A stretch of DNA of 10,943 nt from a virus (taxonomy: Duplodnaviria; Heunggongvirae; Uroviricota; Caudoviricetes). Below are positions 8,849 to 9,901 of this stretch, piece by piece. The notes under the pieces were generated by a model. That model did no database searches and was not told the DNA's origin. It saw only the letters and a list, made by a program, of their open reading frames with translations. The position numbers were made by a program, and so were the translations under genes. The stretch lies in IMG/VR virus record IMGVR_UViG_2681813225_000022; one strand, given 5' to 3'. The stretch's first letter is position 1, and each line of letters opens with the position of its first letter.

Positions 8849-9046
8849 AAAACAAAACTCGCCGTAGCGAGTTCAGATAAAAGAAATCCCCGCGAGTGCG
8901 AGGATAGTTATTCATTGTCGATATTTACATTTATTTCAAATATCTTTACTGGGTAATCGCCAAAGTCATATGTTTTTTATTCTGTTTTATAAGCACTACC
9001 AAGTACTGCTTATTACAAATAAGAAAAGGCTGAAAAAAATATTTAA

Positions 9047-9062
9047 GGCCACAACTGTGGCC
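9047..9062 (-). terminator. Putative intrinsic terminator (GGCCAC-aact-GTGGCC) downstream of the DUF1311-like gene
   Basis: Perfect 6-bp stem with 4-nt loop, 11 nt downstream of the stop at 9073; on the minus strand it is followed by TTAAATATTTTTTTC. Confidence 0.5.
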
Positions 9063-9072
9063 CTAAATTTAC

Positions 9073-9771
9073 TTACGGCACTGCGTTAATCAGATTACAA
9101 ATACCTCTTTTGGCAGGGTCTGAATTCAACTTCTGAAAATTGGCGTTCAACATGGCCGTGTGTAAGTGATTCTCAACCTCAAAGAATAGGTCGATTTTGC
9201 CCTCTTTGGCTGCCTGTTTCTTCCAAATATTCACTTGGTCATCAGCAATACGACTGGCGCAAGTGAACAAGAACGAACTGCCTCTAGGAATGGATGTCGT
9301 GCTGTAATACTCACCATCTACTTCTACATATTTAGCTCGGAATGACTCTAAGGTTAGCTCATTGCCGTTCTTGACCGACTTAGCTTCTGCCTTACTTGTT
9401 TCTTCCTGCTCTTCAGAATGTTTCTGCGCCGACGTGGGTATGTCATTGGCCGCTGTTACGCTGACTGAACTCCCCAAACCTTTGAGGCCATTAATTTGGA
9501 TAAGATAAGCCAGCTCCAGAGCCTTATTATCAGTGAGTTTTCCACGCATATTTACCCACTGACGTTGAACCATTTTTAGGGTGTCTGCGTTCTCTGGGTT
9601 TCCTTTGAGGGCACTAGAATAGGCAGAGCTAAGCTGTTCGTCTAATTTTGACAGACGTTCGTTATCGCAGATTTTATGTTCGATTGCTGTCGAAGCCTTT
9701 TGGCAGTCAAAGCTGGCTGCAAATGCACCCGGCGATGCCACTAACAATGATGCCAGTAGGATATTTTTCAT
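9073..9771 (-). CDS. Secreted two-domain protein: signal peptide + DUF1311/LprI-like (lysozyme-inhibitor-like) N-domain + C-domain of unknown function (232 aa)
   Basis: Start chosen at the Met at 9771 (MKNILLASLLVASPGAFA|AS: SPase I-type signal peptide, no lipobox), preceded by GGAG with a 5-nt spacer. The mature N-terminus FDCQKASTAIEHKICDNERLSKLDEQLSSAY...QRQW fits the DUF1311 pattern as I recall it. Visibly AT-richer than the flanking prophage genes. Confidence 0.7.
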   Translation of the reverse strand: MKNILLASLLVASPGAFAASFDCQKASTAIEHKICDNERLSKLDEQLSSAYSSALKGNPENADTLKMVQRQWVNMRGKLTDNKALELAYLIQINGLKGLGSSVSVTAANDIPTSAQKHSEEQEETSKAEAKSVKNGNELTLESFRAKYVEVDGEYYSTTSIPRGSSFLFTCASRIADDQVNIWKKQAAKEGKIDLFFEVENHLHTAMLNANFQKLNSDPAKRGICNLINAVP

Positions 9772-9901
9772 ATTCACTCCATAAATACAAAAGCGCAATA
9801 CTATAGCACTTAACCGATCGCTTATCTCGCCCGTTCGTCATTCTTATCTAACCAGAACATGCGACTGCCACAGCACATGTCGAGGATTGCTGCATGTCCA
9901 G

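What the first reader, a model, noticed from the sequence alone, without database searches (positions are those of the whole stretch)
8850..9800. Self-contained secreted DUF1311/LprI-like gene inserted between the ea8.5- and ea22-position genes of a lambda-type prophage
The 9073–9771 gene has its own strong RBS, a cleavable signal peptide, an immediate downstream hairpin/T-tract terminator (9047–9062) and lower GC than the surrounding lambda-like backbone. That is the signature of a moron added to the phage early-left accessory region. It encodes a periplasm-targeted protein with a lysozyme-inhibitor-like (DUF1311) N-domain fused to a roughly 100-aa C-domain I do not recognise. Hypotheses: a lysogen-conversion factor protecting the envelope from lysozyme or endolysin-like attack, a superinfection-exclusion factor, or a periplasmic immunity protein. 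This is the best candidate in the window for an undescribed function.
Basis: partly seen in the sequence, partly recalled or inferred. Interest (0 to 1): 0.7.

Follow-up and report, generated by a model that had tools for sequence, protein, structure and literature searches.

The report
Secreted two-domain phage accessory protein cassette
A small self-contained gene cassette, dropped into a defective lambda-type prophage of E. coli, encodes an exported two-domain protein of unknown function; relatives occur in phage-plasmids and in virulent T4-like phages, so it most likely acts at the cell envelope during infection rather than as a classic lysozyme inhibitor.

Summary
Window 9073-9771 (minus strand) is a real 232-aa gene with a GGAG ribosome-binding site, a Sec-type signal peptide (AFA|ASFDC), a 12-bp hairpin plus T7 terminator, and a Pfam LprI/DUF1311 hit just above threshold that covers only the first 70 of 106 profile positions. 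The GC claim fails: the gene is 44.8% GC, int is 45.3%.

Comparative genomics shows a mobile cassette (9033-9840).
- It is present in 125 of 5426 complete E. coli genomes.
- It sits in lambdoid prophages at four or more attachment sites, with varying neighbours.
- It is flanked here by truncated remnants of two backbone genes.
- It occurs at 83% nucleotide identity in about 110-kb SSU5-type phage-plasmids.

The AlphaFold model gives a DUF1311-like helical N-domain, a disordered linker evolving almost neutrally, and a helical C-domain with one hairpin and a conserved cysteine pair. The C-domain has no Pfam or PDB match and only 12 relatives among 1.84 billion representatives. Distant full-length homologues occur in virulent T4-like Aeromonas phages.

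Function is untested. My best guess, at low confidence, is a periplasmic binder or inhibitor of an incoming cell-wall hydrolase, acting in exclusion or immunity. The protein is already catalogued (phrog_4675; RefSeq "LprI family") but uncharacterised. Interest is moderate.

The parts
9073..9771 (-). Coding sequence of the 232-aa exported protein (stop codon 9073-9075)
   Evidence: ORF list and RefSeq annotation. Full-length match to phrog_4675, E = 3.5e-94. Overall dN/dS against the SSU5 copy is 0.15.
9718..9771 (-). Signal peptide, residues 1-18 (MKNILLASLLVASPGAFA), predicted Sec / signal peptidase I cleavage before ASFDC
   Evidence: Rule-based features. The junction is conserved in distant homologues. 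Two relatives carry a lipobox instead.
9472..9717 (-). N-domain, residues 19-100: partial DUF1311/LprI-like three-helix module with Cys23 and Cys35
9358..9471 (-). Linker, residues 101-138: predicted disordered, acidic, variable in length and sequence
   Evidence: pLDDT below 30. 50% identity and dN/dS 0.81 against SSU5. Variable columns in the alignments.
9076..9357 (-). C-domain, residues 139-232: short helix, beta hairpin and three helices; Cys171 invariant, Cys225 nearly invariant; undescribed domain
   Evidence: pLDDT 84-95. No Pfam, NCBIfam, PADLOC or PDB match. Only 12 hits among 1.84 billion representatives. dN/dS 0.07. Conserved residues.
9777..9780 (-). Shine-Dalgarno GGAG, 5 nt upstream of the ATG
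   Evidence: Sequence. Identical in SSU5 and ev099.
9800..9808 (-). Candidate extended -10 promoter TGCTATAGT, 29 nt upstream of the ATG
   Evidence: It is the only TGnTATA[AG]T in the window and is kept as TGATATAGT in SSU5. The strict two-hexamer scan found no promoter, so it remains a candidate only.
9031..9068 (-). Intrinsic terminator: 12-bp stem (9041-9068) followed by ATTTTTTTCA
   Evidence: The hairpin is retained in SSU5 with a weaker T-tract.
9033..9840 (-). Mobile cassette: the stretch shared between lambdoid prophages and SSU5-type phage-plasmids
   Evidence: Megablast and alignment limits. Found in 125 E. coli genomes and 126 PLSDB plasmids.
8908..8966 (-). Downstream scar: last 59 nt of a 933W L0064-type (ASCH domain) gene; backbone homology ends at 8966
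   Evidence: Window 8850-8966 aligns with 933W 2075-2191, and L0064 spans 2133-2498.
9817..9905 (-). Upstream scar: first ~85 nt of a SAM-dependent methyltransferase gene found in other lambdoid prophages

Best explanation
Shown:
- Window 9033-9840 is a portable one-gene cassette with a candidate extended -10 promoter, an RBS, an ORF and an intrinsic terminator.
- Recombination has placed it in the int-proximal end of the early-left operon of many lambdoid prophages. Here it replaced backbone DNA between a methyltransferase stump and an ASCH-gene stump.
- The product carries a Sec-type signal peptide, so the mature protein (23.6 kDa) should be periplasmic.
- It has two independently folded domains joined by a ~38-residue disordered linker, and each domain has a conserved cysteine pair. 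The N-domain is a partial DUF1311/LprI-like helical module. The C-domain is a helical domain with one hairpin that is restricted to this family.
- Both domains are under strong purifying selection. The linker is not.

Inferred mechanism (low confidence): the protein is made early in infection, and possibly from its own promoter in lysogens. It sits in the periplasm and binds and neutralises a cell-wall-degrading enzyme delivered from outside. The most likely target is the peptidoglycan hydrolase of a superinfecting phage's tail; a contact-dependent muramidase toxin is the alternative. On this reading it is an envelope-level exclusion or immunity factor that works like T4 Spackle, without being related to it.
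For: Anatomy and mobility.

Periplasmic location:
- The signal peptide is conserved across homologues that share only 20-38% identity.
- Two relatives use a lipobox instead.
- Cys171 is invariant and Cys225 nearly so, even in the Aeromonas phage homologues.

Link of DUF1311 to peptidoglycan hydrolases:
- Etsi4, a DUF1311 protein, rescues the periplasmic toxicity of the T6SS effector Etse4 (PMC12981562).
- Signal-peptide LprI-domain proteins lie next to lysozyme-like or lytic-transglycosylase effectors in Pantoea and S. Dublin (PMC9796082, PMC8867033).

Use by phages in general:
- 154 phage records carry homologues, and 150 of them are distant (<60% identity) homologues in large Aeromonas, Escherichia and Klebsiella phages; those inspected are virulent T4-like (Straboviridae) phages.
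- In 44RR2.8t and kv_tblp8 the gene sits among early genes, between primase 61 and dCTPase 56. This is the timing expected for superinfection exclusion.

Precedent: T4 Spackle is an early, exported helical protein with a single disulfide that selectively inhibits the gp5 tail lysozyme (PMC7677548).
Against: - No binding partner or phenotype is known.
- The N-domain covers only profile positions 1-70 of DUF1311 and lacks the second cysteine pair of that family.
- BLASTP against the validated immunity protein Etsi4 finds nothing (E = 8.6).
- No effector gene lies next to the cassette in any context examined.
- There is no similarity to Spackle or to any annotated exclusion family in PHROGs or PADLOC.
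- A Klebsiella T4-like phage carries both Spackle and an N-domain relative, so the family is not simply a Spackle substitute.
- ScwA, another periplasmic DUF1311 protein, regulates host murein enzymes instead of inhibiting lysozyme.
- The promoter is only a motif match, and the strict scan found none.
Confidence: 0.3

Rival explanations
1. Orphan immunity protein. The periplasmic protein protects the lysogen, or the phage-plasmid carrier, from peptidoglycan-degrading toxins injected by competing bacteria through T6SS. That would be a fitness gift of the mobile element to its host.
For: DUF1311/LprI proteins with signal peptides are shown (Etsi4) or predicted to be T6SS immunity proteins. The cassette is carried by temperate elements that persist in their hosts, namely lambdoid prophages and phage-plasmids. 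It may have its own promoter.
Against: No effector is adjacent in any locus seen. There is no pairwise similarity to Etsi4. The homologues in virulent T4-like phages would gain little from T6SS immunity. The C-domain, which is the most conserved part, is never found in T6SS loci.
Confidence: 0.15
2. Modulator of the cell's own envelope enzymes or of lysis timing. The protein binds host murein hydrolases (as ScwA does), or the phage's own holin or endolysin system (as the T4 RI antiholin does). This would tune cell-wall turnover or delay lysis.
For: ScwA, a free periplasmic DUF1311 protein with disulfides, controls the level of MltD (among other murein lytic transglycosylases), and its overproduction causes lysis (PMC7933661). 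The homologues occur in lytic phages, which regulate lysis through periplasmic proteins.
Against: ScwA has a different architecture, with DUF1311 at the C-terminus and four cysteines spanning the protein. The cassette is far from the lysis genes in lambdoid phages and in 44RR2.8t. No holin-linked synteny was seen, apart from loose proximity in RB49, about 2.3 kb from t.
Confidence: 0.15
3. An envelope function unrelated to peptidoglycan hydrolases. The variable C-domain would bind an outer-membrane receptor, a periplasmic transport component or an incoming phage protein, blocking adsorption or DNA passage. The N-domain would serve only as a common scaffold.
For: The N-module is fused to unrelated C-domains in RB49-like and Klebsiella phages, and the same C-domain follows a different lipoprotein N-terminus in P0062 and P0064. 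That is the pattern of a scaffold plus an interchangeable specificity domain. The distant homologues in Yersinia and in a metagenome contig are each preceded by a small membrane-protein gene.
Against: There is no homology to Cor, Llp, Sim, Imm or other known exclusion proteins. Nothing identifies a target.
Confidence: 0.2
4. Inhibitor of animal c-type lysozyme. On this reading it is a virulence-type lysogenic conversion factor, as the RefSeq name implies.
For: The Pfam family name and the threshold-level PF07007 hit. The source strain and many carriers come from animal or human guts.
Against: No MliC, Ivy or PliG domain is present. ScwA gave no lysozyme protection, and the authors note that no experimental evidence shows the DUF1311 domain inhibits lysozyme. 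The homologues in Aeromonas and other virulent phages do not fit.
Confidence: 0.05

Closest known systems
Pfam PF07007 (LprI / DUF1311), e.g. PP0307 of Pseudomonas putida (PDB 3GI7)
   Different: Only the first two thirds of the domain are matched (profile 1-70 of 106). The second cysteine pair of the family is absent. A disordered linker and an unrelated ~94-residue domain follow.
[not shown]
   Same: Signal peptide plus a DUF1311-type module. A periplasmic site of action is presumed.
   Different: Etsi4 is a 149-aa single-domain protein encoded directly after its effector. It shows no pairwise similarity (BLASTP E = 8.6) and matches a different part of the profile (positions 16-106). The target has no adjacent effector and has a second domain.
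T4 Spackle (gp61.3), periplasmic inhibitor of the gp5 tail lysozyme
   Same: Phage-encoded, exported and helical, with one disulfide per domain. The T4-like homologues lie in an early-gene region. It offers a plausible analogous mechanism.
ScwA (SL1344_0490) of Salmonella Typhimurium
   Same: A free periplasmic protein of similar size with a DUF1311 module and functionally important disulfides.
   Different: In ScwA the DUF1311 module is C-terminal. The gene is chromosomal, not phage-borne. It regulates host murein lytic transglycosylases. No homology to the target's C-domain was detected.
Lambdoid phage morons (e.g. lambda bor and lom, HK97 gene 15)
   Same: A single gene with its own terminator and a candidate promoter, inserted between backbone genes. 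It shows presence/absence polymorphism and has an envelope-located product.
   Different: It lies in the early-left int-proximal region, not in the late region. Its GC content does not differ from its neighbours. Its promoter is unproven.
phrog_4675 / RefSeq WP_000789829.1 / SSU5_101
   Same: It is this family: a full-length match and identical or 82%-identical proteins.
   Different: These are catalogue entries only, and no function has been assigned.

Membership tests
Pfam PF07007 LprI/DUF1311 | HMM bit score at or above the gathering cut-off (22 bits) | tested here: met
   25.3 bits, E = 2.1e-5. 10 of 14 family members also match.
Pfam PF07007 LprI/DUF1311 | Full-length domain with the family's four conserved cysteines | tested here: not met
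   Only profile positions 1-70 of 106 align. The N-domain has two cysteines, C23 and C35. The same truncation is seen in all phage relatives.
Pfam PF07007 LprI/DUF1311 | Fold similar to a solved DUF1311 structure | tested here: met
   [not shown]
Proven lysozyme inhibitors (MliC/PliC, Ivy, PliG) | Presence of an MliC, Ivy or PliG domain | tested here: not met
   No such Pfam hit at E <= 1. No PDB sequence or fold match to these families.
Proven lysozyme inhibitors (MliC/PliC, Ivy, PliG) | Inhibition of lysozyme activity in vitro | not testable with these tools
   This needs purified protein and a turbidity assay.
T6SS immunity proteins of DUF1311 type (Etsi4-like) | Encoded next to a cognate periplasm-acting effector | tested here: not met
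   No effector-like gene is adjacent in the window or in eight other contexts.
T6SS immunity proteins of DUF1311 type (Etsi4-like) | Sequence similarity to a validated member | tested here: not met
   BLASTP against EDL933 Etsi4 gives E = 8.6.
Phage moron | Own transcription terminator immediately downstream | tested here: met
Phage moron | Own promoter | tested here: inconclusive
   An extended -10 motif, TGCTATAGT, lies at 9800-9808 and is conserved in SSU5. The consensus scan found no promoter.
Phage moron | Present or absent between otherwise related backbones, with insertion joints | tested here: met
   125 of 5426 genomes carry it. Neighbours and att sites differ. Truncated gene stumps lie on both sides.
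Phage moron | Nucleotide composition distinct from neighbours | tested here: not met
   GC is 0.448, against int 0.453 and the Cys-rich gene 0.433.
T4 Spackle family | Sequence or fold similarity to gp61.3 | tested here: not met
   [not shown]
phrog_4675 | Full-length HMM match | tested here: met
   E = 3.5e-94, residues 1-231 against profile 1-234 of 235.

The most novel reading that the evidence does not exclude
The protein would represent an unrecognised modular class of phage-encoded periplasmic factors. The class would consist of a disulfide-stapled LprI-N scaffold, a flexible tether and an interchangeable C-terminal 'warhead', and would be shared by virulent T4-like phages, SSU5-type phage-plasmids and lambdoid prophages. 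Each warhead, including the orphan C-domain here, would neutralise a different incoming envelope-attacking protein. That would define a new family of superinfection-exclusion or anti-competitor immunity proteins.
Probability: 0.2. Interest if true: 0.65.

Novelty: new variant of a known kind. Interest (0 to 1): 0.4.

Why it matters
Periplasmic phage proteins with a worked-out mechanism are few; examples include Spackle, RI, Sim, Cor and Llp. This family spans temperate and virulent phages of several Gammaproteobacteria. It is carried by about 2% of sequenced E. coli and by many clinical Enterobacter, Citrobacter and Salmonella phage-plasmids, and it is under strong purifying selection. It is nevertheless labelled 'lysozyme inhibitor' on the strength of a domain name alone. 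Finding its partner would correct a widely propagated annotation. It could also reveal a new way in which mobile elements protect or remodel the envelope, with consequences for phage host range and phage therapy. If it proves to be a minor accessory protein, little changes.

Tried and rejected
- Foldseek against AFDB50 was unavailable.
- Foldseek against PDB gave nothing below E = 3.9.
- Single-sequence and profile searches of PDB sequences found nothing meaningful.
- The first AlphaFold run, on a shallow alignment of >=72%-identical sequences, was unusable at pLDDT 45.7. Adding distant homologues fixed it.
- The third homologue search, with a C-domain profile, returned only fragments of the same family.
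- PADLOC gave no defence-system hit for the target or its neighbours.
- NCBIfam hits (CpoB, A1S_1983) were far below their cut-offs and were rejected as signal-peptide or helix noise.
- I asked whether the RB49 C-domain is MliC-like, which would parallel M. tuberculosis LprI. Pfam shows no such hit, so I dropped the idea.
- I asked whether the Aeromonas T4-like phages that carry the full-length homologue lack Spackle. A tblastn with a Klebsiella-phage Spackle found essentially no Aeromonas phages. It also barely detected T4-type Spackle, so the test is too insensitive to count.
- Co-travel with the Cys-rich gene was rejected.
- GC content as a mark of foreign origin was rejected.
- Literature searches for the accessions and for LprI combined with prophage or superinfection found no functional study.
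Full report
**Setting.** The window is E. coli chromosome (ybhD, ybhH, ybhI, a frameshifted ybhJ, ybhC). It runs into the left end of a lambda-type prophage integrated at the classical lambda site. The att core GCTTTTTTATACTAA is at 7094-7108. It is followed on the minus strand by a lambda-type int (7182-8252; Pfam Phage_integrase plus Arm-DNA-bind_1) and a clipped xis. Next come a Cys-rich 103-aa gene (8537-8848), the gene under study (9073-9771) and an Ead/Ea22-like gene (9902-10534). 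The region is 100% identical to E. coli 2014C-3011 (NZ_CP027591), where the prophage is visibly defective: it has an IS3 insertion and a deletion joining bet to ninG.

**Checking the observation.**
- The ORF, its ATG at 9771 and a GGAG 5 nt upstream are as described.
- The N-terminus MKNILLASLLVASPGAFA|ASFDC has the features of a Sec / signal peptidase I signal: a basic n-region, a hydrophobic core with mean Kyte-Doolittle 2.04, and A-x-A. It has no lipobox and no twin arginine. I had no dedicated predictor, so this rests on rules and on conservation of the same junction in homologues as distant as 25% identity.
- The terminator is real: a 12-bp stem at 9068-9041, then ATTTTTTTCA, -17.6 kcal/mol, z = -3.2.
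- Pfam LprI/DUF1311 scores 25.3 bits against a cut-off of 22, but over profile positions 1-70 of 106 only.
- Nothing in Pfam, NCBIfam or PADLOC matches residues 100-232.
- The one sub-claim that fails is composition. The gene is 44.8% GC, the same as int (45.3%) and the Cys-rich gene (43.3%). Only the AT-rich spacer 8849-9072 (33.9%) stands out.

1. Homology to the 933W-type backbone ends at 8966, inside what is the last 59 nt of gene L0064 (an ASCH-domain gene) in 933W.
2. On the other side, 9817 to about 9905 is the first ~85 nt of a SAM-dependent methyltransferase gene that is intact or longer in other prophages. RefSeq annotates it as an incomplete stump in another carrier. The cassette therefore sits between two truncated backbone genes.
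3. The stretch shared at 83-84% nucleotide identity with Salmonella phage SSU5 and about 110-kb SSU5-type phage-plasmids is 9033-9840. That is the terminator, the ORF, the RBS and 69 nt upstream.
4. The cassette is in 125 of 5426 complete E. coli genomes: 108 chromosomal copies at 95% identity or more, and 17 plasmid copies at 82-84%.
5. Chromosomal copies lie in lambdoid prophages next to ybhC, torS, mdtA or a P4-type integrase with torI. Upstream and downstream neighbours differ, but the cassette is always one to three genes from xis/int and on the same strand.
6. It does not travel with the Cys-rich gene. The two are adjacent in 12 genomes, against 124 and 311 genomes that carry each separately.

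An extended -10 motif, TGCTATAGT (9800-9808), lies 29 nt upstream of the ATG. It is the only such motif in the window and is kept as TGATATAGT in SSU5. The stricter two-hexamer scan found no promoter, so autonomous transcription is plausible but unproven.

**The protein.** Close relatives (70-97% identity) are few and are almost all on ~110-kb contigs from Salmonella, Citrobacter, Enterobacter and Klebsiella.

A phmmer search with the C-terminal 103 residues against 1.84 billion representative proteins found only 12 hits. They include distant two-domain relatives (P0055, P0061). They also include two proteins, P0062 here and P0064 from the later profile search, in which the same C-domain follows a lipoprotein signal and an unrelated N-region. 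A Yersinia enterocolitica homologue (30% identity) lies beside a large serine recombinase at the edge of an integrated element.

With these sequences added, AlphaFold2 gave a usable model (mean pLDDT 73):
- residues 21-100 form three helices (pLDDT 77-90);
- residues 101-136 are disordered (pLDDT below 30);
- residues 139-230 form a short helix, a beta hairpin and three long helices (pLDDT 84-95).

Between the lambda-type and SSU5 copies, dN/dS is 0.08 for the N-domain, 0.07 for the C-domain and 0.81 for the linker. That describes two constrained modules on a free tether. Across all homologues, including the Aeromonas phages, G153, C171 and N209 are invariant, and S157, D178, A187, F196 and C225 are nearly so. 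The conserved cysteine pair in each domain fits an oxidising compartment.

**An unexpected distribution.** A tblastn search of the phage collection found 154 records. Apart from ev099 and SSU5, they are large virulent T4-like phages of Aeromonas (65), Escherichia (RB49-like, 49) and Klebsiella (24).
- The Aeromonas proteins (e.g. 44RR2.8t ORF027c) align over the full length and keep the C-domain cysteines.
- The RB49 and Klebsiella proteins share only the signal peptide, N-domain and linker, and carry a different C-domain.
- BFVD fold hits agree.
- In 44RR2.8t and Klebsiella phage kv_tblp8 the gene lies among early genes, between primase 61 and dCTPase 56.

So the N-module is a recurrent secreted scaffold in phages, joined to interchangeable C-domains. 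Whatever the protein does is useful in purely lytic infections too.

**What it probably does.** Nothing here demonstrates a function, and the literature library holds no study of this protein. The RefSeq name 'lysozyme inhibitor LprI family protein' should not be read literally. According to the ScwA study, the inhibitory activity of M. tuberculosis LprI resides in its MliC domain. That study also reports that no experiment supports lysozyme inhibition by DUF1311, and that the periplasmic DUF1311 protein ScwA gave no lysozyme protection but controls murein lytic transglycosylase levels (PMC7933661).

What DUF1311 proteins do share is a repeated association with lysozyme-fold enzymes in the periplasm. 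Etsi4 neutralises the periplasmic toxicity of the T6SS effector Etse4 (PMC12981562). LprI-domain proteins also sit beside lysozyme-like or transglycosylase effectors in Pantoea and S. Dublin.

The following points together lead to my preferred reading: export, early-gene placement in T4-like phages, presence in both lytic and temperate phages, and the precedent of T4 Spackle (an exported, disulfide-containing helical inhibitor selective for the gp5 tail lysozyme; PMC7677548). I read the protein as a periplasmic binder or inhibitor of an incoming cell-wall hydrolase, acting in superinfection exclusion or immunity. I put this at about 0.3.

Against it:
- There is no similarity to Etsi4 (E = 8.6) or to Spackle.
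- No effector is adjacent anywhere.
- The DUF1311 match is partial.
- One phage has both Spackle and an N-domain relative.

The rivals are T6SS orphan immunity, modulation of host murein enzymes or lysis timing, a receptor- or transport-directed exclusion factor in which the C-domain carries specificity, and an animal-lysozyme inhibitor. They are scored in the report sections.

**Comparison and novelty.** The protein is a member of phrog_4675 and is already in RefSeq, so the sequence is not new. It passes the Pfam threshold for PF07007 but fails the full-domain, four-cysteine criterion. It is better described as an LprI-N-like module plus an undescribed domain. It meets most of the moron criteria (terminator, insertion joints, patchy distribution). 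It does not meet the compositional one, and the promoter is unproven. I rate it a new variant of a known kind: a phage accessory gene for an envelope protein with an orphan C-terminal domain. Interest is moderate (0.4). It is a clean, widely distributed, strongly selected unknown, but there is no sign yet of an unusual mechanism.

Noticed in passing
window 8230-8463 (minus strand): xis is clipped. The C-terminal 45 residues (RIFPPP...KAKS) are identical to the 72-aa lambda-type Xis of phage ev099. The N-terminal 27 residues are replaced by unrelated sequence with only a TTG start. A mosaic joint therefore lies inside xis, and the prophage probably cannot excise.
   Followed up: partly
window 7094-7108: There is an exact lambda att core, GCTTTTTTATACTAA, between ybhC and int (0 expected by chance). 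This confirms integration at the classical lambda attachment site.
   Followed up: yes
window 3421-5530: ybhJ (aconitase-family hydratase) is split into two overlapping ORFs (3421-5031 and 4946-5530). RefSeq marks it as frameshifted in the identical strain.
   Followed up: no
window 5545-5748: Tandem REP/BIME-type repeats (74-nt and 35-nt units, ~92-nt spacing) lie between ybhJ and ybhC. One matches Rfam naRNA4 (5625-5695, 63.2 bits).
   Followed up: partly
window 8537-8848 (minus strand): The Cys-rich 103-aa gene in the ea8.5 slot belongs to phrog_3680 and is homologous to 933W L0063. It has a weak ClpX-type C4 zinc-finger hit (15.7 bits, below cut-off). It is present in 311 E. coli genomes, independently of the cassette. 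Its function is unknown.
   Followed up: partly
window 8855-8905 (minus strand): Two further terminator-like hairpins (8874-8855 and 8905-8886) lie in the 933W-type spacer upstream of the Cys-rich gene. Counting the cassette's own terminator at 9041-9068, three successive hairpins lie between the target's stop codon and the Cys-rich gene.
   Followed up: no
window 8970-9089 (plus strand): A 39-codon ORF (MFFILFYKHYQVLLITNKKRLKK...) converges on the target's 3' end and overlaps the terminator. It is hydrophobic then basic, like a small membrane peptide, but has no Shine-Dalgarno sequence. It is probably spurious.
   Followed up: no
window 10654-10911, and L001 7805-9841: Transposase fragments and an IS3 element lie just upstream of the ea22-like gene. 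Further on, bet is fused to ninG. The prophage is a degraded remnant, yet the cassette ORF is intact.
   Followed up: partly
L005 5778-5987; L017 6735-6944: The distant homologues in Yersinia enterocolitica (P0063) and in a metagenome contig (P0064) are each immediately preceded by a 69-aa small membrane-protein gene. The two small proteins are not obviously related to each other. P0064 is also followed by a TM2-domain protein. These may be partner genes that are absent from the E. coli cassette.
   Followed up: partly
L009 4001-4666; L012 3001-3753: In the Aeromonas phage 44RR2.8t and the Klebsiella phage kv_tblp8 the homologue occupies the same slot, between primase gene 61 and dCTPase gene 56. 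In Aeromonas phage Aswh_1 it is instead inserted, on the opposite strand, between baseplate genes (L011).
   Followed up: partly
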